A stretch of DNA of 64,000 bases from Erysipelotrichaceae bacterium (GCA_022780745.1 JALEVB010000018.1:2240-66239); one strand, 5' to 3'; positions 40,166 through 50,917 are shown, numbered from the stretch's first letter. A program made the numbers and translations. Notes: generated from the sequence alone by a model not told the origin.

Positions 40166-40924
40166 ATGTCAGTTAAAAAATTAATTGGATTGATTAGAAA
40201 AGCTGATAAAGCATATAAACTTATAGATGAAAACGATCGTATAGCTATTGGCGTTAGTGGCGGTAAAGATAGTATGTTACTACTTTATTGCATGCGTAAA
40301 TATCAGGATGTTGCTGCCAGATTTGACAATAAACATTTTGAAATCGTTGGTATCCATTTAGAAATGGGGTTTTCAAATATGAATTTCGATGAAGTTGTAG
40401 CTTTCTGTAAAAAAGAAAGTATTGAATATTATGATATTCCAACTAGAATGTATGATATTTTAAAGCTAAATAATAACGAGGATGATACATTAAAATGTTC
40501 ATTATGTTCTAAATTTAAAAAAGGAGCTGTAATAAAAGAAGCTAAAAGACTTCACTGTAACAAAACAGCATTTGCTCATCATGCAGATGATGCAATTGAA
40601 ACATTATTATTAAATATGATATATGGAGGCAAAATTGCTACTTTCGCTCCTAAAATGTATTTAACTGATTCGGATATGACTTTTATTAGGCCATTTGTTT
40701 ATTGCCATGAAGATATTATTTCTCAAACAGCATCAAGTATAAATCTACCTATTGTTAAAAGTACTTGTCCTAACGATGGCTTTACCAAAAGACAGGATAT
40801 TAAAGAATTAGTAAATCAGATATATAGTACTTATCCAAGTGCTCGTAATAACTTATTATTATCTTTACATAATCTATCACAACTAGATCTATGGGAAGAA
40901 CAGATAAAAAATGAAGATAAATAA
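40166..40924 (+). CDS. PP-loop ATPase of the TtcA/TtuA-like tRNA thiolation family
   Basis: AIGVSGGKDSMLLL PP-loop plus CSLCSKF (CxxC) and a second Cys block STCPNDG. AAGGAG RBS. Confidence 0.75.
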   Translation: MSVKKLIGLIRKADKAYKLIDENDRIAIGVSGGKDSMLLLYCMRKYQDVAARFDNKHFEIVGIHLEMGFSNMNFDEVVAFCKKESIEYYDIPTRMYDILKLNNNEDDTLKCSLCSKFKKGAVIKEAKRLHCNKTAFAHHADDAIETLLLNMIYGGKIATFAPKMYLTDSDMTFIRPFVYCHEDIISQTASSINLPIVKSTCPNDGFTKRQDIKELVNQIYSTYPSARNNLLLSLHNLSQLDLWEEQIKNEDK

Positions 40925-40935
40925 GCTTTTTAATA

Positions 40936-41192
40936 TTGACAAATAGTTTTATTGCTTATATAGTTAAGGACATAAAATAAATTATAGAGGTAGCGATGTA
41001 AATTAGTACTTATTTGTAGTTGGCAAACGTTTGAAAAATAAGGAAAGGTAATCATCGCCGAACATCTTTATCTGGCAGGTTAAAGATGTGGGGTTATAAG
41101 TAATACTTATAACACTCCTACATATTCTTTATGTAGAGGCGCTATTATATACGAATAGTTCACCGTATGTAATAGACATGCGGTTTATTTTA
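40936..41192 (+). promoter_or_regulatory. promoter plus lysine riboswitch (L-box) with terminator
   Basis: -35 TTGACA (40936-40941), 17-nt spacer, -10 TATAGT (40959-40964). L-box blocks by eye: AGAGGTAGCG, AGTAC, GGAAAGG, CATCGCCGAA, TCTGGCAGG, the P5-like hairpin CTACAT-attcttt-ATGTAG followed by AGGCGCTAT. Terminator accgtatg/catgcggt (41162-41184) followed by TTATTTTA. Confidence 0.7.
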
Positions 41193-41215
41193 TGTAAAAG
41201 GAAAGAGGAAAAAAA

Positions 41216-42034
41216 ATGAAAAAATTATTATGTTTATTGCTTGCAATGATGCTTGTTGGATGTTCATCATCTACAAGTGAAGGTTCAACTACTACAGAAA
41301 CTACTAAAGATACTTTTACTGTAGGTATGGAATGTGACTATGCTCCATTTAACTGGACACAAGTTGAAGATAGTGAAACTGCTGTTAAGATTTCTGATGT
41401 TGATTATTGTGATGGTTATGATGTTGTTATGGCAACAAGAATCGCTAATGAATTAGGGTTAGAATTACAAGTTAAGAAAGTGTCTTGGGATAACTTGATT
41501 CCTTCTATCAATAATGGTGATATTGATGCCATCATTGCTGGTATGACTGATACTGAAGAAAGACGTCAAGAAGTTGACTTTACTGATCCTTATTATGCTT
41601 CTCAAATGGTAGTTATTGTTAAGGCAGATAGTGATCTAGTAAATATTAGTGATATTCAGGAATTATCAGGTAAAAAAGTTATGGGTCAATTGGCTACTTT
41701 ATATGATGATGTAATTGATCAGATCGATGGTGTTATTCATATGACTCCACAAGATGCATACCCTCGTATGGTATTAGCATTAAATGAAGGTGAAGTAGAC
41801 GCTATTACTGCTGAAATGCCTGTTGCTCAAGGTGTAGTAGCTGCTAATGAAGGTTTAGCAATTGTTACATTTGAAGAAGGTCATGGCTTTGTTGCTGATA
41901 CTACTGTTTCAATTGCTTTAGCTAAAAATTCAGAATTAAAAGATCAGATCAATGATATTTTAAGTAATATCTCTCAAGATGAAAGAAACCAGATCATGCT
42001 TGATGCTACTGATCGTCAGCCTGCTACAAACTAA
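41216..42034 (+). CDS. amino-acid ABC transporter substrate-binding lipoprotein
   Basis: Signal peptide with lipobox LLAMMLVGC. Family-3 SBP blocks FTVGMECDYAPFNW, IDAIIAGMTDTEERR and VDFTDPYY. Confidence 0.85.
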   Translation: MKKLLCLLLAMMLVGCSSSTSEGSTTTETTKDTFTVGMECDYAPFNWTQVEDSETAVKISDVDYCDGYDVVMATRIANELGLELQVKKVSWDNLIPSINNGDIDAIIAGMTDTEERRQEVDFTDPYYASQMVVIVKADSDLVNISDIQELSGKKVMGQLATLYDDVIDQIDGVIHMTPQDAYPRMVLALNEGEVDAITAEMPVAQGVVAANEGLAIVTFEEGHGFVADTTVSIALAKNSELKDQINDILSNISQDERNQIMLDATDRQPATN

Positions 42035-42810
42035 TGGAATTTCTTACAAATTGTCTTAATATTGTTTTAAGATATTATCCAAGTTTTATTCTTGGTATTA
42101 AAACAACATTATTAATAGCATTTACAGGAACTATTATTGGCTTGATCCTAGGTTTGCTGGTTGGTGGGATCAAAGCTATTAAGCTAGATAAAACTGCTGG
42201 TACCTTTAGTATAATTATTAAAAAAGTTTATGATATTATAGCTACTATTTATATTGAAGTATTTAGAGGAACTCCAATGATGGTTCAGGCAGTATTCTTA
42301 TATTATGCTTTACGCCCTATTTTTCATTGGACATATGTTGTAGCTGCAATATTTGTTATTAGTGTTAACACTGGGGCTTATATGGCTGAAATCGTTAGAA
42401 GTGGTATTCAATCTATTGATATTGGACAAACAGAGGCTGCTAGAAGTTTAGGTATGTCTAATTTCCAGACTATGATAAATATTATTCTACCTCAAGCCAT
42501 CAAGAATGCTTTTCCAGCTATAGGAAATGAGTTTATTGTTAATATCAAAGACAGCTCTGTTTTAATGATCATTTCTATTACTGAATTAATGTTTGAAGCA
42601 AAATCAATTGCTGGTAGTACTTATAAATTTACTGAAACATATTTCGTTACTGCATGTATTTATTTGTTCTTAACATCAATTACTAGCTTTATCTTACATT
42701 TGATTGAAAATAAAATGAATCATTCCAGAACTACTATTCCGCAATCATCAACTAATGCTGATGCATTAAAAATAGCAAAGGAGAAAAACTATGAGCCACC
42801 AGTTGATTAA
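42034..42810 (+). CDS. amino-acid ABC transporter permease (His/Glu/Gln/Arg/opine family)
   Basis: Polar amino-acid permease signature [22 protein letters not shown] (EAA loop) and multiple TM helices. Confidence 0.9.
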
Positions 42811-43525
42811 AATTAATAATGTTCATAAGAACTTTGGCCATCTTCAGGTATTAAAAGGTGTCAGCTTCAACGTTGATAAAAATGATGTAGTATGTTTGAT
42901 CGGTGCAAGTGGTTCTGGTAAATCAACAATGCTAAGATGTATCAACCTATTGGAGGTTGCTGATAGTGGCGAAATTATAGTTGATAATGAAGATATCCTT
43001 AAGATCAAAGATATTAATCACTATCGTCAAAAGGTTGGCATGGTATTTCAGCAGTTTAATTTATTTAACAATATGACAGTATTAAAAAACTGTATGATAG
43101 CTCAGGAAAAAGTATTAAAAATATCAAAAGAGAAAGCCAAGGAAAAAGCATTATATTTCTTAAATAAAGTTGGTATGCTTGATTTTGCTTATGCCAATGC
43201 CAGTACTTTATCTGGTGGTCAAAAACAAAGAGTTGCCATTGCTCGTGCATTATGTATGGATCCTGAAATATTATTATTTGATGAACCGACAAGTGCCCTT
43301 GATCCTGAAATGGTTGGAGAAGTTCTAGATGTAATGAAAAATCTTGCTAAAGAAGGATTAACAATGGTTATTGTCACTCATGAAATGAGTTTTGCTAAAG
43401 AAGTTAGTAATAAAGTAGTATTTATGGCTGATGGCATTATTGAGGAACAAGGTACACCTGATCAGATATTTAATCATCCTCAAAAAGAAAAGACTAAAGC
43501 ATTTTTGGCTAGAGTTATTAGATAA
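42791..43525 (+). CDS. amino-acid ABC transporter ATP-binding protein
   Basis: Walker [10 protein letters not shown], signature LSGGQKQR, Walker [12 protein letters not shown]. GlnQ/HisP-like length. Confidence 0.95.
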
Positions 43526-43544
43526 CATAAGCTATAATTACTTT

Positions 43545-44369
43545 ATGAAAATCAAAAGAATATACATTGAGATAACCAATAACTGCAATTTACATTGCAG
43601 TTTTTGTGTACCAAATTCAAGAAATAAAAAATATATGAGTATTGATGAATTTGAACATATTATTAAACAAATCAAAGACATCAGCTCATATATTTATTTA
43701 CATGTACAAGGTGAACCTTTACTACACCCCTATTTTGATCAGATATTAACCATTTGTGATAATTATGATATGCATGTTCAATTAGTAACTAATGGTACTT
43801 TCATTGATAAACATATGAATATTTATCAGCATCCTTCTTTAAGAAAGATAAGTTTTTCTTTGCATTCTATCGACTATCAGTTAATAGATCCTGATATATA
43901 TATTAACAATATTCTATCTTTTGTTAAATCTGCTAGTAAGAATTGTTTTATTGAATTACGTTTTTGGACTATTGATAATATATCTTATAAGATGCAAAAA
44001 ATCATTGATCTTTTAAAACGTGATCATCATTTTGAATTAACTTCTAAAAAACTAAGTTACAAATTATCAGATAATCTTTATATTTACTTTCAAAACAGCT
44101 TTACTTGGCCTATAAATGCTCACAATCATCATATTAATGGTTTCTGCTATGCTGCTAATAATATGTTAGCTATATTGGTTAATGGTGATGTATCGATATG
44201 CTGTTTAGATAGTGATGGCAAGATCAATATTGGAAATATTTTTGAAACTGATATCAAAAAGATCTTAACTAGTCAGCATTATAAAGATATTATTAGCGCA
44301 TTTAATCAAAATAAATGTATTGAAAGCTTATGCCAGCAGTGTACATATCGTGATCGTTTTAATAAATAA
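43545..44369 (+). CDS. small radical SAM protein with SPASM/twitch-type C-terminal Cys motif (start at ATG 43545)
   Basis: CNLHCSFC (CX3CX2C) at aa 13-20. C-terminal C-X12-G-X4-C (FCYAANNMLAILVNGDVSICC) followed by CIESLCQQC. The ORF-track N-terminal extension overlaps the ABC ATPase gene. Confidence 0.8.
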   Translation: MKIKRIYIEITNNCNLHCSFCVPNSRNKKYMSIDEFEHIIKQIKDISSYIYLHVQGEPLLHPYFDQILTICDNYDMHVQLVTNGTFIDKHMNIYQHPSLRKISFSLHSIDYQLIDPDIYINNILSFVKSASKNCFIELRFWTIDNISYKMQKIIDLLKRDHHFELTSKKLSYKLSDNLYIYFQNSFTWPINAHNHHINGFCYAANNMLAILVNGDVSICCLDSDGKINIGNIFETDIKKILTSQHYKDIISAFNQNKCIESLCQQCTYRDRFNK

Positions 44370-44613
44370 GTAATGTAGTTCCTTCACTTAAATATAGATC
44401 TTTAACTTTTTTGTTTAATTCAATAAATCTATTAGTATATTTTTCATATACTAATAGATTATTGCTGGAATTATAAGTATTACTGATTTCATCTTTGACC
44501 ATGATCAGTATTAATTCGATATTAGCTAATAATGTTCTATTAATATCTAGATTACAATCATAACATTTATTAGCCATAACTATTTCTATTGAACAATTCA
44601 AATCATTCTTCAA
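44359..44613 (-). CDS. hypothetical 84-codon ORF coupled to essC (TTG start; first ATG at 44577)
   Basis: It is the only open frame in the 234 nt between essC and the radical SAM gene, which is unusual for DNA this rich in stop triplets. The TTG start overlaps the essC TGA. It contains CYDC and a perfect 15-bp hairpin lies inside it. Confidence 0.4.
   Translation of the reverse strand: MKNDLNCSIEIVMANKCYDCNLDINRTLLANIELILIMVKDEISNTYNSSNNLLVYEKYTNRFIELNKKVKDLYLSEGTTLLIY
44426..44460. repeat. perfect 15-bp inverted repeat (hairpin, 5-nt loop) at the convergent operon junction
   Basis: aatctattagtatat-ttttc-atatactaatagatt. On the minus strand the hairpin is followed by TTTATTGAATT. Confidence 0.85.
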
Positions 44614-47600
44614 TTATTCTTATCCTTTCTATTCTACCTTTGTTATATACGATTGCTTCATTTTCAAGCAAGTCATTTTTTAGATGATAATTAATAATAT
44701 ACTGCTGATTAAAACCATCACCTACATAAACCATATATTCATATGTTTTCTGATCATGTTTTTTTAGATAATTATTGAGTTCAACTAGATAAATATCTGC
44801 TTTAGTTTCAATATCATTAATACTGATAGTTTTAAATTTATTTAATATTTTGGCTAAATTTTCTAGTACATATAAGTATTTGCTAATAATTAGAACTGGA
44901 AAACTATTTAGGCAGTAAGCTTCATAGGTTTTATAACTTATTCCTATATTCATGATTCTTTCATCAAAAATGACTTTATTTATCGTTGGAATGATCTTAG
45001 CAGTTATTCCCTGATAGATATGGTTAGCTATGCATTGTTTTATCATATCTTTAGTTACATCAATAATATAGAATGATAATAAATGTTTATCATAATAAAT
45101 ACCATAGTGGATATCCGCTATACTATTCTTTACTTCTATCGTATTAAAGATATTGATAAGTTCATTGTATTGTGAAATACCATATGCAATTTTTTTAGTA
45201 AAAAGATTCTGAAATTTTATATTAATAGTACTAGGTTTATAGGCAAAACATATAAAATGTAACTGATAGTGTTCGTAATTCAAGATCATTTCATATAGAT
45301 CAGCTAATAAAGGTTCATAGTCACTAAAGAATAGATTAAAGTTATTTATGACTAGATAATTATGTTTTTTATGATCAATAAATCGAAATAAATTGGTTAT
45401 TTTTTCTTTATCATTGACGATATTGATAAAACTTATATTCTGATATTCTTTATCTAAATCATCGTTAAGATCAATAATATAAATATCATCCTGATATGGA
45501 TCACAAATTTTCAGTAAATTATAAATATACATATTCATAAAACTTTTAATATATTGATTATTATGACAATATACAAGTAATGGTTCATTATGATATAGAT
45601 AGTAATTTTGATTTAGATAATAATCATCTACTATACCTAGCAGTATTCCTTTATTGCGATAATATATCACGTTTTGACTATTATCTATTTTATCGATCCA
45701 TAGTTTTTCGTTTAGATCACTGGTTTGACATATCCTAGCTAATAAAGCATCGATTTGTTTGATTTCATTCTCTTTTTCAAAACACAATTGATCTTTTACC
45801 TCTTTCATTTCATCTAAGATCTCTACACGATTTTTATTCTTTATTTTATCAATGCTGCTAAAACCATAGGCACATATTCCTTTTGTCAATTCCTGGTCAC
45901 AATATAGATAAAAACTGCCAGCTTTTTTTAAATGGCAAGCCATATCATTACCTATCAGTTCCTGTGAATCATTTTTATTTTGTACTTTTAAGCAGATCCG
46001 AAAATGAGTATTACTCATGATATTATCATCTACATTGCCACTGGCTTTCTGGGTTGATAAGATCAGATGGATGCCTAAGCTTCTGCCAATGCGGGAAATT
46101 GATATCAAATCATTTATAAAGTCAGGATACTGATTCTTTAATTGTGCAAATTCATCGACAATAATGATCAGATGAGATAAATATGGTATATGCATATTTT
46201 CATTATATAACCTTTGATATTTATCAATATTCATCTCACTTTCATTAGTTAGATATAACATCTGGTTAAATAATTCTTGTCTTTTGATACATTCATTATT
46301 GAGATTAACTAAGCAGCGATCGATCATATTAGCATCTAGATTTGATATACAGCCATATAAATGAGGAAGATGATAGTTATTATTGTCAAAAGTTTTTATT
46401 AGTCCTGCACCCTTAAAATCAATAATAATAAACTTTAGATCTTTTGGGTCATATTTAATACTTAACAGAATAATTAAACTAATAATAAATTGGGATTTAC
46501 CACTTCCTGTAGATCCCACGATTATACCATGAGGACCATTAGCTTTTTCACTAAGATCTAAACTAATAGGTTCATTATTGAGCTGATAGCCAATAATTAC
46601 CTTCAAATCGTGATAACTATGATTTTTATGATAATTACTTAGGATATCAATTTCTTTGATATCACTAATATTTAAGACATCAAATAATGTTACCTGGGAT
46701 AAAACTTTAGTGGTTTGTATGTTATTTAGTCTTAAATATAATTTCTCTAGATCAACTTTTTCATATTTAAAATCAAAGTTAATTATTCGATTTTCCTTAT
46801 CAATGATTTGTTTATCATTGATCAAAATATCGTTATCATTTAGCACATCACTTAAATAATAATTAATGAATATTCCCTTTTTATTAACATTTTTAGCTAG
46901 TTTCAAATTCTGACTAATGAAAATAATATCTTCTTTGATTTCTAGTTCATTAAATCTTTTAACCTGATCGATATTAGTTAATATCAGTCTAATATTGTGA
47001 TAATTACAATGAGGTATGAGTCTGATATAAGTATTTGACTGGTAATATGCTTTATCAATGATAAAACATAGTTTTAGATCCTGATAATTGAAGTAAGTAG
47101 TTAATTGCAAAATGATATATTCTAGAATATTTTTATTATTAATAGCTATATTATGATATTTTTTTAAATCTAGCGTATATATTGAATCATGATATCTTAT
47201 GGATGCGATAAAGTCTTGATAGATTTGATATGCTTCATCATTTATATCAATATCTAGTTCATTATATTTTATATTAGTTGTTATATTGCTTATACCTAAT
47301 GCAATAGTTAAATAGTCAATATTGTCTTTATTTTTACTATATAAAATATTATTTAATTCTAGGCTTTTATCATATAGTTCTCTAAAGCCTAAAAAACGTT
47401 CATTTATGCTTGATTTTAATGTTATAAGATATTTATCCACTTCTATCTTTAACATTGCTAATTTAGCCTTAAAATCCTCTATCCTTTCATTTTGTTTATT
47501 ATGATACTTTTTAACCTCATACCTTCTTTGTAATGGAATAACCAGGATACTAGAAAGGATCATAGTACAAGGCATAATAAGCATAGGAATTACTTCAATG

Positions 47601-48301
47601 ATCTTTCTTTGATTTAATAATGCATTATAAGTCATTATGATACCATTGACCAAAGAAGCACTAGCCATAAGAACTGATGGAATAATAACATATTTTAAAG
47701 GCATAGGATCAAAGTTAACTAAAGGCTTAACATTAGGTATTTTTATTGTTAAAGCTTCACAATAATTAAAAGCTCTAAACTTACATACATAATATAACGG
47801 CTTAATAACATCACTAATAATTTCATGTTTAATATTTTCAACTTTAACCAAAGAAACTAAAATATTCAAACATTGATTGACCATAATAAAATCATTATGA
47901 ATAACCATTCTTAAATTAATTAGACATATAACTTCATCATTAGCATAATGATAAACTTTATTAAATCTTAAATCATTGATCGTATGTAAATTAGTATCAA
48001 TAATCAAGGTTTTCTCATCTAAAGAACTGTCCTGAACCCATATATCATTATCAATATTATTACCGATAGTAATAACACTTTTAACATCATATTTCTGATA
48101 ATTATTATACCCATCTAAATATTTACTAAAAATAACATGATACTGATCATAATCAAAGTTATTACAAGATTTAAATTCATGATCATTGATCATTAAAATA
48201 TCAGCTTTAAAACAAATTATTAAATTTTCAAAATAGCACCTTTGACCATCATTCAATAAAGTAATACAGGCATCTTTATGATATATATAGGCTAACTGCA
48301 T
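44603..48301 (-). CDS. essC: T7SSb FtsK/SpoIIIE-family ATPase EssC/YukB, short form
   Basis: N-terminal FHA-like region (VITIGNNIDNDIWVQD) and two TM helices. Blocks nearly identical to S. aureus EssC D1: EKANGPHGIIVGSTGSGKSQ, IIIVDEFAQLK, SRIGRSLGIHLILSTQKASG. Confidence 0.9.
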   Translation of the reverse strand: MQLAYIYHKDACITLLNDGQRCYFENLIICFKADILMINDHEFKSCNNFDYDQYHVIFSKYLDGYNNYQKYDVKSVITIGNNIDNDIWVQDSSLDEKTLIIDTNLHTINDLRFNKVYHYANDEVICLINLRMVIHNDFIMVNQCLNILVSLVKVENIKHEIISDVIKPLYYVCKFRAFNYCEALTIKIPNVKPLVNFDPMPLKYVIIPSVLMASASLVNGIIMTYNALLNQRKIIEVIPMLIMPCTMILSSILVIPLQRRYEVKKYHNKQNERIEDFKAKLAMLKIEVDKYLITLKSSINERFLGFRELYDKSLELNNILYSKNKDNIDYLTIALGISNITTNIKYNELDIDINDEAYQIYQDFIASIRYHDSIYTLDLKKYHNIAINNKNILEYIILQLTTYFNYQDLKLCFIIDKAYYQSNTYIRLIPHCNYHNIRLILTNIDQVKRFNELEIKEDIIFISQNLKLAKNVNKKGIFINYYLSDVLNDNDILINDKQIIDKENRIINFDFKYEKVDLEKLYLRLNNIQTTKVLSQVTLFDVLNISDIKEIDILSNYHKNHSYHDLKVIIGYQLNNEPISLDLSEKANGPHGIIVGSTGSGKSQFIISLIILLSIKYDPKDLKFIIIDFKGAGLIKTFDNNNYHLPHLYGCISNLDANMIDRCLVNLNNECIKRQELFNQMLYLTNESEMNIDKYQRLYNENMHIPYLSHLIIIVDEFAQLKNQYPDFINDLISISRIGRSLGIHLILSTQKASGNVDDNIMSNTHFRICLKVQNKNDSQELIGNDMACHLKKAGSFYLYCDQELTKGICAYGFSSIDKIKNKNRVEILDEMKEVKDQLCFEKENEIKQIDALLARICQTSDLNEKLWIDKIDNSQNVIYYRNKGILLGIVDDYYLNQNYYLYHNEPLLVYCHNNQYIKSFMNMYIYNLLKICDPYQDDIYIIDLNDDLDKEYQNISFINIVNDKEKITNLFRFIDHKKHNYLVINNFNLFFSDYEPLLADLYEMILNYEHYQLHFICFAYKPSTINIKFQNLFTKKIAYGISQYNELINIFNTIEVKNSIADIHYGIYYDKHLLSFYIIDVTKDMIKQCIANHIYQGITAKIIPTINKVIFDERIMNIGISYKTYEAYCLNSFPVLIISKYLYVLENLAKILNKFKTISINDIETKADIYLVELNNYLKKHDQKTYEYMVYVGDGFNQQYIINYHLKNDLLENEAIVYNKGRIERIRIIEE

Positions 48302-50289
48302 CAGCTATCACTTATTAGAATATGACATTTAATGACATATTTATCATCTTTAGTTTTGATCTCAATGATCGAATTACCCTTTTTTAAGCCAGTAATAACA
48401 TTTTTATCAACTTTAACATTATCATTATTACTTGTAAATATCAGATCATCAATGCTCATATTGGCAGGTAAGGCTTTAATTTTAATAGTAACGCTATCAC
48501 CTGCTTTCACTAATAAAGAATAATCTTCAATGATGATATTATCAACATTGATAATTTGATCTGTATTACTAATAGTATTATTATATCTGGTACATTTATC
48601 TACAAAATGAAAATTCTCCAAATGACTCTTACCCTTTAATAAAGAAGAATTATTTCTTGTTAATATATTAAGTTTTTTAGTTAGCCCCATTTTTGCTAAT
48701 AAAGTCTTACTGCTATTAATACCAACATCTAAAATATTATAGACATCTATATCTCCACATACATAAACATGATCATTTTGAGATGATAATTCATCTAGAA
48801 AATCTAATTCCATATCTGTATTGATCATAGTATGCTGATTATTATCATCATATAAATGAACAGTCGTATTGATCAATCCCTTGATACCACCATCAGCATA
48901 AATATCCATTAGTTCGATATTATTTAATTTTAAACCTAGAATACTCTTAGCAACTAGGGAAGTATTAGCCTTGATCACAAAATCGCTCTTGAAATCATTA
49001 TCATTAATAGTACGCATATTTCCATTACGATACTCCAATCCTATATCATGATCCCCACTCAAGGATAACTCTATTCTTCCCGATGCATAAACTACTAATT
49101 GTACTTTAATAGTAATAAACAGATTTGATGTATTAGGTATCGGTACATTGATCGTAGCTATGGTAAATATCGTATCAATAACATCCTGTTTTTCTTTAAA
49201 TAACCTTTTTGCAGAAAGTAAAAAATCATTTGCATCCATATCTTTAAAATCAGCATATAAAGTTTTTGATATGCCATTTTTTATTCCTGCTGAGACTAAA
49301 GTATTAAAGTCAAATTTTAAATATGCTGCTTCTAATTGATGATCATTGATCTTAATATCATAACTAGGTTTAACATTATATAACTTATAACTGATATAAG
49401 CTTCGTTACCATTAACATTTCTCGAGGCATTTACAACGATACTAGAAGTATTTAATGTTAACTTAATATCAAATTCCTTATATTTAAAACTCTTGCTTTT
49501 TACATAAGAATTTAATGTAATGGGATTATTGTATGCACTATAAAATACTAGATCATTATCATCATTACTTTCATCTTCTATATAAGCATCTTGAAAGCTG
49601 ATTTCATCAGAAAAACTAATATCAAGATCTTCAAATACATCATTAGTCTTTTCTATTTCATAGATGTTATTATCTTTATTAGTTATCTGATAATAATTAT
49701 TGTTTATGCTAATAATATCATTAACAGATAATTCTTCTTCAGTTTGCATCTTATTTTCATCAATTAACACTACATCTTGAATATCTTTGATATTCTCATC
49801 CATCTTTACTTCATATTTATTTTCAAATTCTTTATTATTTATTAATAATACGATTTCATCAAGAGTATTTAATGCTTTGTCTTTTGCTATCAATGCTTCT
49901 TTATCTAATTTATCTATATATCCTAATTTATAACAAGTATCAAAATCTTCTTCAATTTCTCTTATTCTAAAAATTGTTTTACAGAAATACTCATTATTTA
50001 ATGATTTGTCTAGCTGTAGTTTCTCATCTTTATCTATTATGCCCCACTCAACTAAAGTCTGGACAATATCAAAATAATATGATGAAGTATCTAATTCATT
50101 AAAATATGGTATTTTATTATCACTAGCAATAAGTGACATTTTATCAAAGATCGCATCATAAAACTGAGCATTACTTATGGTTGTAATACTCTTATTACAA
50201 CCATAAGTAGTTATTAATAACGAAATGATAGAAATCCTAAATATTAGTTTGCGAAGCATTAGTATTAATCGTTTGTTCCAATGAATCAT
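48301..50289 (-). CDS. putative lipoprotein with C-terminal Big_2 (bacterial Ig-like) domain; alternative start at 50259
   Basis: N-terminus MLRKLIFRISIISLLITTYGC is signal-peptide-like with an imperfect lipobox. The C-terminal about 80 aa, VKAGDSVTIKIKALPANMSIDDLIFTSNNDNVKVDKNVITGLKKGNSIIEIKT, fit the Big_2 pattern. The middle is beta-rich and unassigned. Confidence 0.7.
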   Translation of the reverse strand: MIHWNKRLILMLRKLIFRISIISLLITTYGCNKSITTISNAQFYDAIFDKMSLIASDNKIPYFNELDTSSYYFDIVQTLVEWGIIDKDEKLQLDKSLNNEYFCKTIFRIREIEEDFDTCYKLGYIDKLDKEALIAKDKALNTLDEIVLLINNKEFENKYEVKMDENIKDIQDVVLIDENKMQTEEELSVNDIISINNNYYQITNKDNNIYEIEKTNDVFEDLDISFSDEISFQDAYIEDESNDDNDLVFYSAYNNPITLNSYVKSKSFKYKEFDIKLTLNTSSIVVNASRNVNGNEAYISYKLYNVKPSYDIKINDHQLEAAYLKFDFNTLVSAGIKNGISKTLYADFKDMDANDFLLSAKRLFKEKQDVIDTIFTIATINVPIPNTSNLFITIKVQLVVYASGRIELSLSGDHDIGLEYRNGNMRTINDNDFKSDFVIKANTSLVAKSILGLKLNNIELMDIYADGGIKGLINTTVHLYDDNNQHTMINTDMELDFLDELSSQNDHVYVCGDIDVYNILDVGINSSKTLLAKMGLTKKLNILTRNNSSLLKGKSHLENFHFVDKCTRYNNTISNTDQIINVDNIIIEDYSLLVKAGDSVTIKIKALPANMSIDDLIFTSNNDNVKVDKNVITGLKKGNSIIEIKTKDDKYVIKCHILISDS

Positions 50290-50536
50290 AGCTATTTACC
50301 GTCATATCAAGGAATTTTACATAGTTATTGATAGTTTCCTTCTGAATCTCAAAACGATTGCTAAACTGATTAAAACGATCTCTAATAGTATTAGCACTAT
50401 CTGATACCCAAGATACATTTAATCCATTCATCTGATTTTTCATATCATTCAATAGATCATAGATTTTGATATTTAAGCTCTCGATCTGTTTTTGACAGTT
50501 AACTACTTCTTGTAAAGAAATTTTAATCCCGTTCAT
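50237..50536 (-). CDS. WXG100-like small helical protein, degenerate motif (EsxB-like partner)
   Basis: 99 aa with a predicted helix-turn-helix hairpin layout. W43-V-S replaces WXG. Y83-D-S-L-E87 lies near the C-terminus. GGAGG RBS 7 nt upstream. Confidence 0.6.
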   Translation of the reverse strand: MNGIKISLQEVVNCQKQIESLNIKIYDLLNDMKNQMNGLNVSWVSDSANTIRDRFNQFSNRFEIQKETINNYVKFLDMTVNSYDSLEQTINTNASQTNI

Positions 50537-50546
50537 CTTATACCTC

Positions 50547-50840
50547 CTATAAAGCAGTAACGCTCTGTGTTAATTCATCCTGCAGATTAGTATATGCTTT
50601 AGCACTAGCTCTTAGAAATTCGATATATTGCCATATTAGAATATACATCTGATTAAAATCATCTTCATAAGCACTAATTGCATTACTAAAAGCCATATTA
50701 TCCTTTCCCTGCCATGAACTCTTCAATAGATCAACCTCATCAAAAAGCTGATTATAGCTTTGTTTATAACTAATAACCATCTCTTCCATTTTATTGGCTA
50801 CCTGTTCAACATTAGCCATCTCAACACTAATAGATCTCAT
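50547..50840 (-). CDS. esxA: WXG100 family T7SS substrate (EsxA-like)
   Basis: 97 aa. W43-Q-G45 (SSWQGK; W codon at 50712-50714) sits at the centre of a helical hairpin-type sequence. AGGAGG RBS. Confidence 0.8.
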   Translation of the reverse strand: MRSISVEMANVEQVANKMEEMVISYKQSYNQLFDEVDLLKSSWQGKDNMAFSNAISAYEDDFNQMYILIWQYIEFLRASAKAYTNLQDELTQSVTAL

Positions 50841-50889
50841 ATATTTTCCTCCTTCGCTATATATTTATGCTACAAAAGTAAAATATCCT

Positions 50890-50917
50890 AAAAAAATCCT
50901 GGCATATCTGCCAGGAT
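50890..50917 (-). terminator. intrinsic terminator after rbfA (insulates the T7SS operon)
   Basis: 9-bp stem atcctggca / tgccaggat (50896-50904 with 50909-50917) and a 4-nt loop. On the minus strand it is followed by a T6-7 run. Confidence 0.8.

What the first reader, a model, noticed from the sequence alone, without database searches (positions are those of the whole stretch)
44359..50917. Stripped-down T7SSb-like operon with no EsaA/EssA/EssB/EsaB: two WXG100-type genes, a Big_2 lipoprotein, a short EssC and one small ORF
SEEN: five minus-strand ORFs are packed head to tail.
- An EsxA-like gene (50840-50547, AGGAGG RBS, W-Q-G).
- A second 99-aa helical ORF (50536-50237). Its GGAGG RBS overlaps the first gene's stop codon.
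- A 652-662-aa putative lipoprotein whose start overlaps the second esx-like gene by 23-53 nt.
- A 1232-aa EssC/YukB-type ATPase whose ATG shares a base with the lipoprotein TGA (TGATG, 48303-48299).
- An 84-codon ORF whose TTG start overlaps the essC stop.
The unit is insulated upstream by the rbfA terminator (50890-50917).
ESTABLISHED: the Bacillota T7SSb machines characterised so far (S. aureus Ess, B. subtilis Yuk/Yue) combine EssC with EsaA/YueB, EssA, EssB/YukC and the ubiquitin-like EsaB/YukD. They usually carry LXG-type toxin/immunity cargo nearby. I recognise none of those here.
INFERENCE: either the missing parts are encoded elsewhere, or this is a reduced T7SS architecture. In the second case the lipoprotein, and perhaps the 84-aa ORF, would be lineage-specific machine or cargo components.
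Basis: partly seen in the sequence, partly recalled or inferred. Interest (0 to 1): 0.8.

Follow-up and report, generated by a model that had tools for sequence, protein, structure and literature searches.

The report
Minimal five-gene type VII secretion cassette
This is a real, strictly conserved five-gene type VII protein-secretion operon of uncultured gut, oral and rumen Erysipelotrichaceae; it keeps the three universal parts of such systems (a WXG100 pair, a membrane ATPase, a ubiquitin-like protein) and adds one lineage-specific surface lipoprotein, an arrangement I could not find among the published variants.

Summary

- **Main correction.** The 84-aa ORF is not an orphan. It folds confidently (pLDDT 88) as a ubiquitin-like beta-grasp, matching the ubiquitin-like domains of mycobacterial EccD. 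It is therefore the EsaB/YukD-type (TsxB) component, and "no EsaB" is wrong.
- **Conservation.** The cassette esx1-esx2-lipoprotein-essC-ubl is syntenic in every one of about 50 related loci with enough DNA, in several different flanking contexts.
- **Lipoprotein.** It has a conserved lipobox cysteine, an SLH-like N-terminal domain, an unmatched beta-rich core and a C-terminal Big_2 domain.
- **EssC.** It is closest to T7SSb YukB/EssC. Only ATPase domain D1 keeps Walker A/B; D2 and D3 are shortened and have lost their P-loops.
- **WXG100 pair.** Esx1 carries WxG and Esx2 an invariant YxxxE, like an EsxA/EsxB heterodimer.
- **Missing parts.** No EssB, EsaA, EssA or LXG gene lies in the window or any flank. 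The whole genome could not be scanned.

Garrett, Higginson and Palmer (2024) already described T7SSc-j with this same A/B/C core. This is best read as a further, undescribed variant of a known kind.

The parts
50890..50917 (-). Intrinsic terminator of the upstream nusA-infB-rbfA operon, which insulates the cassette; the 95-nt spacer that follows holds the AGGAGG ribosome-binding site of esx1
   Evidence: Hairpin plus U7 read; -20.3 kcal/mol, z = -4.97, 0 of 200 shuffles fold as well
50547..50840 (-). esx1 (TsxA1-like): WXG100 protein carrying the W-x-G motif (WQG)
   Evidence: Pfam WXG100 E = 2.9e-7, 31.1 bits against a 27.3 cut-off. PDB hit 4lws, E = 7e-5. WxG present in 31 of 36 homologues
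50237..50536 (-). esx2 (TsxA2-like): WXG100 paralogue with W-x-S instead of WxG and an invariant C-terminal YxxxE (YDSLE)
   Evidence: NCBIfam NF035934 'pore-forming ESAT-6 family', 115.8 bits against a 100 cut-off. Pfam WXG100 scores 26.9 bits, just under the 27.3 cut-off. YxxxD/E present in 38 of 38 homologues. About 16% identical to esx1
48301..50289 (-). Lineage-specific lipoprotein (662 aa), the candidate extracytoplasmic machine component
   Evidence: Found in every cassette. No Pfam or NCBIfam family covers the whole protein. AF2 model with mean pLDDT 74.7
50197..50289 (-). Lipoprotein signal peptide and lipobox (residues 1-31, Cys31)
   Evidence: One hydrophobic segment at residues 7-27. 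Cys31 is nearly invariant, and homologues carry SC, GC or AC lipoboxes
49840..50172 (-). SLH-like helical domain of the lipoprotein (residues about 40-150)
   Evidence: Foldseek matches to SLH domains 6bt4, 3pyw and 6cwl with probability 1.00 and TM-score relative to the target of 0.51-0.58. One family member hits Pfam SLH at E = 0.003
48601..49818 (-). Beta-rich core of the lipoprotein (residues about 158-563), with strands up to 23 residues long and no structural match
   Evidence: Secondary structure of the model. No convincing PDB or viral match outside the SLH and Big_2 domains. Holds most of the invariant residues
48310..48546 (-). C-terminal Big_2 Ig-like domain of the lipoprotein (residues about 582-660)
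   Evidence: Pfam Big_2 in 8 of 12 family members, best E = 8.5e-12. Foldseek matches 2l04 and 7quz
47693..48301 (-). EssC N-terminal cytoplasmic region (residues 1-203), probably FHA-like
   Evidence: The family profile's best PDB hit is the EssC FHA domains 5fwh at E = 0.022, followed by the Ki-67 and Rv1747 FHA domains. Weak evidence
47528..47692 (-). Two EssC transmembrane helices (residues 204-224 and 234-258)
   Evidence: Hydropathy scan. The region aligns to the transmembrane region of YukB 9qks
46667..47527 (-). EssC membrane-proximal DUF-type (degenerate NTPase-like) domain
   Evidence: Residues 216-433 align to YukB residues 264-485. Weak internal similarity to D1 (hhalign E = 0.0012)
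45887..46666 (-). EssC ATPase domain D1, the only one with intact Walker A (GSTGSGKS, residues 596-603) and Walker B (VDEF)
   Evidence: Pfam FtsK_SpoIIIE E = 5.5e-23. YukB 9qks 1.2e-65. Only one Walker A in the protein. Both motifs invariant in 30 homologues
44606..45886 (-). EssC C-terminal 427 residues: shortened, P-loop-less D2- and D3-like domains
   Evidence: The family profile hits the Geobacillus EssC D2-D3 structure 4lya at E = 4.5e-5, covering the start of D2. Domain-start motifs are kept but GKS/T is lost. No Pfam hit
44359..44613 (-). Ubiquitin-like EsaB/YukD-type (TsxB) protein, 84 aa, with no C-terminal Gly-Gly
   Evidence: AF2 pLDDT 87.9. 93 Foldseek hits at E <= 1e-3; all 50 listed are ubiquitin-fold proteins, including EccD1 4kv2 and EccD5 7b9f. 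A 71-86-aa ORF overlaps the essC stop in nearly every related locus with downstream DNA

Best explanation
A self-contained, minimal type VII secretion system of an Erysipelotrichaceae lineage, made of five co-translated genes.

- The EssC-type ATPase (TsxC) is inferred to oligomerise in the membrane through its two transmembrane helices and to form the export channel. Transport would be powered by its single competent ATPase domain, D1. The degenerate D2 and D3 domains would serve as docking or regulatory modules.
- The 84-aa ubiquitin-like protein (TsxB) is inferred to bind and stabilise the ATPase, as YukD does for YukB.
- Esx1 and Esx2 are inferred to form a WXG100 heterodimer with a composite export signal (WxG on Esx1, YxxxE on the Esx2 tail). 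They would be the main, and possibly the only, locally encoded substrates.
- The lipoprotein is exported by Sec and lipidated. It would sit on the outer face of the membrane, hold the cell wall through its SLH-like domain and project a beta-rich stalk with an Ig-like tip. It would take the extracytoplasmic role that EsaA, EssA and EssB play in T7SSb and that TsxI plays in T7SSd, e and j: a conduit, scaffold or docking site across the wall.

Shown here: gene content, folds, motifs, synteny and purifying selection. Inferred: every protein-protein contact, heterodimer formation, the lipoprotein's role, and independence from EssB, EsaA and EssA.
For: - Family and fold assignments: WXG100; EssC closest to T7SSb YukB (1.2e-65) and to TIGR03928; ubiquitin fold for the small ORF; lipobox, SLH-like domain and Big_2 for the lipoprotein.
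- Strict synteny esx1-esx2-lipoprotein-essC-ubl in 41 GTDB species loci plus metagenome loci. Flanks differ between clades: rbfA, DUF1846, a glycoside-hydrolase/MFS block, a peptidase C1 gene.
- Overlapping stops and starts imply translational coupling.
- D1 Walker A and B are invariant while D2 and D3 have lost their P-loops.
- YxxxE in 38 of 38 Esx2 homologues and WxG in 31 of 36 Esx1 homologues.
- Purifying selection within the species: 37-39 synonymous against 11-13 nonsynonymous differences, with no disruptions.
- No EssB, EsaA, EssA or LXG family among the precomputed Pfam hits for the rest of the window, and none among the Pfam hits for ten of the most widely shared flank gene clusters.
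- Precedent: T7SSc-j share the A/B/C core, and several lack all T7SSb-specific membrane parts (PMC11217815). YukD is a structural assembly factor for YukB (PMC12637312 abstract).
Against: - The whole genome was not scanned, so essB, esaA or essA could lie elsewhere.
- The YukD assignment rests on a predicted fold. By sequence only 1 of 26 homologues touches Pfam YukD (E = 0.054), and ubiquitin folds are common.
- The FHA assignment is weak (E = 0.022).
- D3 is inferred from motif patterns and insignificant hhalign scores.
- The lipoprotein could be a co-regulated surface protein rather than a machine part. Its core fold has no match.
- No experimental data exist for any member.
Confidence: 0.7

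Rival explanations
1. A split standard T7SSb. The locus holds only part of the machine, and EssB/YukC, EsaA/YueB and EssA are encoded elsewhere in the chromosome and assemble with this EssC.
For: The EssC is closest to T7SSb EssC/YukB and probably keeps FHA-like N-terminal domains, which in T7SSb bind the EssB pseudokinase. The genome outside the 64-kb window was not examined.
Against:
- Here about 50 loci in several contexts never show them within 10 kb.
- The EssC scores 352 bits against a 778-bit equivalog cut-off.
- The system has a WXG100 pair rather than a single EsxA.
- A dedicated lipoprotein is wedged between esx2 and essC.
- Published non-b subtypes lack these genes genome-wide (PMC11217815).
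Confidence: 0.12
2. The lipoprotein is not a machine part. It would be a co-expressed surface adhesin or wall-binding protein, or an extracellular receptor or anchor for the secreted Esx dimer. The true machine would then be only EssC plus the ubiquitin-like protein.
For: SLH-like plus Big_2 architecture is typical of surface or S-layer and adhesin proteins. It uses Sec rather than T7 for export. It is the fastest-evolving large gene of the set, 26-43% identical across genomes where esx1 stays 43-73% identical.
Against: It is linked to this EssC in every locus examined, and its position between esx2 and essC with overlapping reading frames is invariant. No full-length family member was seen outside the cassette. 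The core domain holds many invariant residues.
Confidence: 0.15
3. A decaying remnant of a T7SS that no longer secretes. The short EssC with dead D2 and D3 domains would be a relic.
For: D2 and D3 lack P-loops and the protein is about 250 aa shorter than S. aureus EssC (the S. aureus length of 1479 aa is taken from PMC11217815). The cassette GC is 25.7% against 29.7% for the rest of the window.
Against: The genes are intact in about 50 genomes spanning 22-40% EssC identity. D1 motifs are invariant. Within-species substitutions are mostly synonymous. The same degenerate pattern is shared by all members, so it is an ancestral design and not recent decay.
Confidence: 0.03

Closest known systems
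T7SSb (S. aureus Ess, B. subtilis Yuk/Yue)
   Same: Bacillota host. The EssC-type ATPase is closest to YukB/EssC by sequence, with two transmembrane helices and probably FHA-like N-terminal domains. It has a discrete roughly 80-aa ubiquitin-like partner without a Gly-Gly tail and a WXG100 substrate encoded first in the operon.
   Different: No EssB/YukC, EsaA/YueB or EssA in the locus. Two non-identical WXG100 genes instead of one homodimeric EsxA. EssC is about 250 aa shorter, with P-loop-less D2 and D3. It has an extra SLH-like/Big_2 lipoprotein. No LXG toxin or immunity genes nearby. The gene order differs, with the ubl gene after essC.
T7SSg of Acetivibrio and Paenibacillus (Garrett, Higginson and Palmer 2024, PMC11217815)
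   Same: The same count and logic of parts: TsgA1 and TsgA2 (a WXG100 pair), TsgB (ubiquitin-like), TsgC (ATPase), plus one system-specific extra protein.
   Different: The extra protein there is TsgL, a DUF5050 beta-propeller. Here it is a lipoprotein with SLH-like, long-strand beta and Big_2 domains, with no DUF5050 hit. TsgC lacks FHA domains. T7SSg always sits beside Tad pilus genes, whereas here the flanks are housekeeping genes. The host family also differs.
TsdI, TseI and TsjI of T7SSd, e and j
   Same: A Sec-exported protein with Ig-like domains, encoded in the T7 cluster and proposed to span the envelope like EsaA. This is the same proposed role as the lipoprotein here.
   Different: TsxI is about 1650 aa with many Ig-like domains and a C-terminal transmembrane anchor. 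Here the protein is 662 aa, N-terminally lipid-anchored, with one Big_2 and an SLH-like domain. Those systems also carry kinase, phosphatase and FHA components that are absent here.
T7SSa (ESX) EsxA/EsxB heterodimer and the EccD ubiquitin-like domain
   Same: A pair of paralogous WXG100 genes, with WxG on one and YxxxD/E on the other. The small protein's model superposes on the ubiquitin-like domains of EccD1 and EccD5. Esx1's best solved relative is an actinobacterial Esx protein, 4lws.
   Different: No EccB, EccD, EccE or MycP. The ubiquitin-like module is a free protein. The ATPase is of the T7SSb type.

Membership tests
Type VII secretion systems in the broad sense (TsxA/TsxB/TsxC core of Garrett et al. 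2024) | Membrane-bound FtsK/SpoIIIE-type EccC/EssC ATPase | tested here: met
   Pfam FtsK_SpoIIIE 5.5e-23; TIGR03928 4.6e-105; YukB 9qks 1.2e-65; two transmembrane helices
Type VII secretion systems in the broad sense (TsxA/TsxB/TsxC core of Garrett et al. 2024) | WXG100-family protein encoded with the ATPase | tested here: met
   esx1 passes the Pfam WXG100 cut-off. esx2 passes the NCBIfam NF035934 cut-off
Type VII secretion systems in the broad sense (TsxA/TsxB/TsxC core of Garrett et al. 2024) | Small ubiquitin-like EsaB/YukD-type protein lacking a C-terminal Gly-Gly | tested here: met
   The fold is ubiquitin-like and the protein ends in LLIY. Sequence-level membership of Pfam YukD was not reached: 1 of 26 homologues at E = 0.054
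Type VII secretion systems in the broad sense (TsxA/TsxB/TsxC core of Garrett et al. 2024) | ATPase-dependent secretion of the WXG100 proteins | not testable with these tools
   Needs a secretome comparison of wild type against an essC mutant
T7SSb (Ess/Yuk) | EssB/YukC pseudokinase membrane protein | tested here: not met
   Absent from the cassette, the 64-kb window and the 10-kb flanks of related loci. The rest of the genome was not scanned
T7SSb (Ess/Yuk) | EsaA/YueB polytopic protein and EssA | tested here: not met
   Same evidence as for EssB. The cassette is gap-free, so there is no room for unannotated genes
T7SSb (Ess/Yuk) | EssC reaching the T7_EssCb_Firm equivalog score, with FHA domains and four NTPase-like domains | tested here: inconclusive
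   352.5 bits against a 778.4-bit cut-off. FHA similarity is weak. D2 is recognisable at its start, and D3 is inferred only from motif patterns and insignificant hhalign scores
T7SSb (Ess/Yuk) | A single core EsxA (homodimer) | tested here: not met
   Two paralogues about 16% identical to each other, both conserved in all loci
T7SSg | TsgL DUF5050 beta-propeller component | tested here: not met
   No DUF5050 hit for the lipoprotein or for 11 homologues. The model has long-strand sheets, not propeller blades
T7SSg | ATPase without FHA domains; adjacent Tad pilus genes | tested here: not met
   A 203-residue N-terminal cytoplasmic region with FHA-like hits. The flanks hold rbfA, infB and a radical SAM gene, with no Tad genes
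T7SSd, e and j | Membrane Ser/Thr kinase TsxD, TsxI with a C-terminal transmembrane anchor, and (in e and j) phosphatase and FHA proteins | tested here: not met
   None occur in the cassette or its flanks. The lipoprotein has only an N-terminal hydrophobic segment
Bacterial lipoproteins | Signal peptide ending in a lipobox with an invariant Cys | tested here: met
   Hydrophobic segment at residues 7-27, then ...TYGC31. The Cys is nearly invariant, and homologues carry SC, GC or AC lipoboxes. The window's own -3/-2 residues (T, Y) are atypical
SLH-domain proteins | Three SLH repeats forming a three-pronged helical domain that binds pyruvylated wall polymer | tested here: inconclusive
   Fold match with probability 1.0 and TM-score relative to the target of 0.51-0.58. 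Only 1 of 12 members hits Pfam SLH, weakly. Binding is untestable here

The most novel reading that the evidence does not exclude
An eleventh, so far unnamed T7SS subtype confined to the Solobacterium/Bulleidia-related branch of Erysipelotrichaceae. It would work with only three machine proteins: an EssC with a single live ATPase domain, a ubiquitin-like clamp, and a Sec-exported SLH-like/Big_2 lipoprotein. The lipoprotein alone would replace EssB, EsaA and EssA as the extracytoplasmic part. The system would export just a WXG100 heterodimer. That would make it one of the simplest natural T7SS and a good minimal model for the translocation mechanism.
Probability: 0.55. Interest if true: 0.6.

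Novelty: new variant of a known kind. Interest (0 to 1): 0.5.

Why it matters
T7SS mechanism is still unclear, partly because the model machines are large and carry phylum-specific parts. This would help in several ways:
- It is a five-gene system with one active ATPase domain, one accessory cytoplasmic protein and one lipid-anchored outer component. Found in small-genome commensals, it would be a compact system for reconstitution and structure work.
- It extends the published T7SSa-j catalogue to Erysipelotrichaceae, which are common in human gut, mouth and rumen. The exact 84-aa product is on 276 contigs, and a Solobacterium homologue is on 546.
- It gives a function to three 'hypothetical protein' families.
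- If the Esx pair is the only cargo, the system would bear on what WXG100 proteins do on their own.

Tried and rejected
- **Sequence searches for the small ORF.** Pfam, NCBIfam and PDB sequence searches gave nothing significant. The MntR hit (E = 0.019) rests on a shared YEKY string and was rejected as chance. Only the structure prediction resolved the fold.
- **Word-indexed homology search for the lipoprotein.** It suggested a tiny family of 15 proteins. The exhaustive profile search showed well over 100 full-length 50%-identity clusters, so 'very rare' was dropped. Most of the 40,903 hits are Big_2-only repeat proteins and say nothing about the family.
- **Internal profile-profile comparison of EssC domains.** hhalign gave only weak scores (E = 0.0012 to 0.18). 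They are consistent with degenerate NTPase-like domains but are not evidence on their own.
- **Foldseek of the lipoprotein against viral structures.** It matched only the Big_2 domain. Low-probability PDB matches of the core to outer-membrane barrels and ushers (probability 0.01-0.03) were disregarded.
- **Promoter scan.** It found fewer sites than shuffles give (63 against a mean of 67). No promoter could be assigned in the 95-nt spacer.
- **Apparently truncated lipoprotein gene in one metagenome scaffold (L048).** It coincides with a break in the alignment, where 221 nt of the window correspond to 100 nt of a scaffolded record. I treated it as an assembly gap, not a natural disruption.
- **Literature.** No paper on T7SS in Erysipelotrichaceae, Solobacterium or Bulleidia, none naming T7SSk or T7SSl, and none explaining the NCBIfam name 'pore-forming ESAT-6 family'.
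- **Not possible.** A phylogeny against Garrett et al.'s TsxC set (no reference sequences at hand).

Full report
**1. Observation**

| Gene | Coordinates | Length |
|---|---|---|
| esx1 | 50547-50840 | 97 aa |
| esx2 | 50237-50536 | 99 aa |
| lipoprotein | 48301-50289 | 662 aa (652 aa from the second ATG) |
| essC | 44603-48301 | 1232 aa |
| small ORF | 44359-44613 | 84 aa, TTG start |

The sequence shows the following:
- AGGAGG lies 8 nt before the esx1 ATG.
- TAGGAGG straddles the esx1 stop and serves esx2.
- esx2 and the lipoprotein gene overlap by 53 nt (23 nt from the second ATG).
- TGATG joins the lipoprotein gene and essC.
- essC and the small ORF overlap by 11 nt.

The hairpin after rbfA (stem AUCCUGGCA/UGCCAGGAU followed by U7) folds at -20.3 kcal/mol, with z = -5.

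The cassette has 25.7% G+C against 29.7% for the rest of the window.

Two other alleles of the same species from gut metagenomes are 99.2% identical over 6650 nt and have no indels. They carry 37-39 synonymous and 11-13 nonsynonymous differences. All five genes are therefore under purifying selection.

**2. What the proteins are**

*The WXG100 pair.*
- Esx1 passes the Pfam WXG100 cut-off. Its closest solved relative is an actinobacterial Esx protein (4lws, E = 7e-5).
- Esx2 is just under the Pfam cut-off but passes NCBIfam NF035934, 'pore-forming ESAT-6 family' (115.8 bits against 100).
- The two are only about 16% identical.
- Across related loci, Esx1 keeps W-x-G in 31 of 36 homologues. Esx2 usually has W-x-S but keeps Y-x-x-x-E (YDSLE) in 38 of 38.
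- WxG on one partner and YxxxD/E on the other is the arrangement of the composite signal of mycobacterial EsxA/EsxB. That comparison rests on established knowledge. Heterodimer formation here is an inference.

*EssC.*
- It has two transmembrane helices (residues 204-224 and 234-258) and a single Walker A (GSTGSGKS at residue 596).
- It is closest to B. subtilis YukB (9qks, 1.2e-65). The alignment covers the transmembrane/DUF region and D1.
- It is closest to the T7SSb EssC model TIGR03928, but at 352 bits against a cut-off of 778.
- In 30 homologues, the Walker A and Walker B motifs (VDEF) of D1 are invariant.
- A profile of the last 427 residues finds the Geobacillus EssC D2-D3 structure (4lya, E = 4.5e-5) over the start of D2. 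The alignment shows D2- and D3-type domain starts whose P-loops are gone.
- The protein is short because D2 and D3 are compacted and non-catalytic. No domain is simply missing. The D3 part of this statement is inference.
- A profile of the N-terminal 203 residues gives weak hits. The best is the EssC FHA pair (5fwh, E = 0.022), followed by other FHA domains.

*The small ORF.*
- Sequence methods fail on it.
- A 71-86-aa ORF overlaps the essC stop in nearly every related locus that has downstream DNA. The alignment shows a beta-beta-alpha-beta-beta pattern.
- AlphaFold2 gives a confident model (pLDDT 87.9).
- Foldseek returns 93 hits at E <= 1e-3, and all 50 listed are ubiquitin-fold proteins. 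They include the ubiquitin-like domains of M. tuberculosis EccD1 (4kv2) and of ESX-5 EccD5 (7b9f, 7b9s).
- The protein ends in LLIY, without Gly-Gly.
- It is therefore the EsaB/YukD-type (TsxB) component.

*The lipoprotein.*
- It has one N-terminal hydrophobic segment followed by a nearly invariant Cys31 within a lipobox.
- The AF2 model (pLDDT 74.7) has four parts: an SLH-like helical domain (residues about 40-150; Foldseek 6bt4, 3pyw and 6cwl, probability 1.0); a small beta domain; a large beta-rich core with very long strands and no structural match; and a C-terminal Big_2 domain.
- Because it carries a Sec/lipoprotein signal, it is not T7 cargo.

**3. Conservation and context**

- The word-indexed search found 15 homologues of the lipoprotein. 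The exhaustive profile search found well over 100 full-length 50%-identity clusters, plus thousands of irrelevant Big_2-only proteins.
- A scan of one genome per GTDB species gave 41 loci. Almost all are labelled Erysipelotrichaceae (Solobacterium, Bulleidia, Galactobacillus, 'Ca. Colivicinus'). A few sit in MAGs with implausible labels.
- Every locus with enough DNA has the order esx1-esx2-lipoprotein-essC, and nearly every one with downstream DNA also has the small ORF. EssC lengths are 1176-1304 aa.
- The same order holds for metagenome loci of close relatives and for two of the more distant family members.
- The flanks differ between clades: rbfA; DUF1846 and peptidase M3; a glycoside-hydrolase/MFS block; a peptidase C1 gene.
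- Clustering all flank ORFs found no further conserved T7-type gene.
- The only recurrent neighbour is an approximately 890-aa glucosaminidase/Big_3 protein directly after the small ORF in 12 loci. It is absent from the window.
- The rest of the 64-kb window is housekeeping: smc, ftsY, alaS, recD2, mnmA, infC, relA, truB, ribF, infB, nusA, polC and others. It has no YukC/EssB, EssA, EsaA or LXG family hit.
- The window's species is an uncultured Erysipelotrichaceae bacterium. The exact 84-aa protein occurs on 276 contigs, including NCBI MAGs. A neighbouring window protein lies in GCA_029226545.1.

**4. Mechanism**

The best-supported reading is an autonomous minimal T7SS.
- EssC forms the membrane channel and motor, with D1 as the only active ATPase.
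- The ubiquitin-like protein stabilises EssC. YukD does this for YukB in the B. subtilis cryo-EM structure (PMC12637312 abstract).
- Esx1 and Esx2 are exported as a heterodimer.
- The lipoprotein provides the extracytoplasmic, wall-spanning or wall-anchored part.

Gene content, folds, motifs, synteny and selection are shown. All contacts and the lipoprotein's role are inferred.

**5. Comparison with what is known**

Garrett, Higginson and Palmer (2024, PMC11217815) defined T7SSc-j. They showed that TsxA (WXG100), TsxB (ubiquitin-like) and TsxC (ATPase) are the near-universal core, and that system-specific parts vary. T7SSd and T7SSg have only five components.

The present cassette fits that core, but its fifth component and its host match none of the ten subtypes:
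- It is not T7SSb: no EssB, EsaA or EssA locally, two Esx genes, and a sub-threshold EssC score.
- It is not T7SSg: no DUF5050 propeller, no Tad neighbours, and an N-terminal FHA-like region is present.
- It is not T7SSd, e or j: no kinase, phosphatase or TsxI.

Neither that paper's text nor its held supplements mention Erysipelotrichaceae, Solobacterium or Bulleidia. No later paper in the library names a further subtype or describes this one.

**6. Verdict**

The system is reduced, and the lipoprotein is lineage-specific and tightly linked to this EssC. EsaB, however, is present, and reduced T7SS variants are already an established concept.
- The finding is a new variant of a known kind and is of moderate interest.
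- The main open point is whether essB, esaA or essA exist elsewhere in these genomes. I could not test that here.

Noticed in passing
window 43431-44369 (+): A radical SAM/SPASM gene (called as 274 aa in public records) converges on the cassette, and its 3' end overlaps the 3' end of the ubiquitin-like gene by 11 nt. There is no terminator between the two convergent genes. A homologous radical SAM/SPASM gene sits in the same position in at least 6 related loci (for example L030:5421-6278).
   Followed up: partly
L034:6609-9359 and 11 other related loci (not in the window): In 12 loci a protein of about 890 aa, with a peptidoglycan glucosaminidase domain and Big_3, lies directly after the ubiquitin-like gene on the same strand. 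It may be a wall-opening partner, by analogy with the S. aureus EssH hydrolase. That analogy is from memory and was not tested.
   Followed up: partly
window 40166-50840: The cassette lies between rbfA and truB-ribF, together with a radical SAM gene, an amino-acid ABC transporter and a PP-loop ATPase (ATP_bind_3). These flanking genes are normally adjacent in Bacillota (my own knowledge). The ABC transporter-truB-ribF side is also kept in the L003 clade, where the upstream side is different. The cassette is 4 points lower in G+C (25.7%) than the rest of the window.
   Followed up: partly
L011, L036, L010, L016, L019 (genome contigs records): Contigs carrying this Erysipelotrichaceae-type cassette are filed in MAGs labelled Methanomethylophilaceae archaeon, Tannerellaceae, Lachnospiraceae, Oscillospiraceae and Acutalibacteraceae (all 'cleanbin' assemblies). 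These are most likely binning or labelling errors rather than horizontal transfer.
   Followed up: no
window 50237-50289: The N-terminus of the lipoprotein (MIHWKQRL...) is conserved even among homologues only 30% identical. It is encoded in the stretch that also encodes the invariant YDSLE..TI tail of Esx2 in another frame. The conservation may therefore reflect the Esx2 signal rather than the lipoprotein, and it leaves the true lipoprotein start (50289 or 50259) open.
   Followed up: no
L048:4498-5375: In one metagenome scaffold of the same species the lipoprotein gene is called as only 312 aa. The alignment breaks where 221 nt of the window correspond to 100 nt of the scaffold, which is probably an assembly gap.
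   Followed up: partly
window 50890-50917: The consensus terminator scanner missed the clear rbfA terminator that RNA folding confirms. Negative results from that scanner should not be trusted in this AT-rich DNA.
   Followed up: yes
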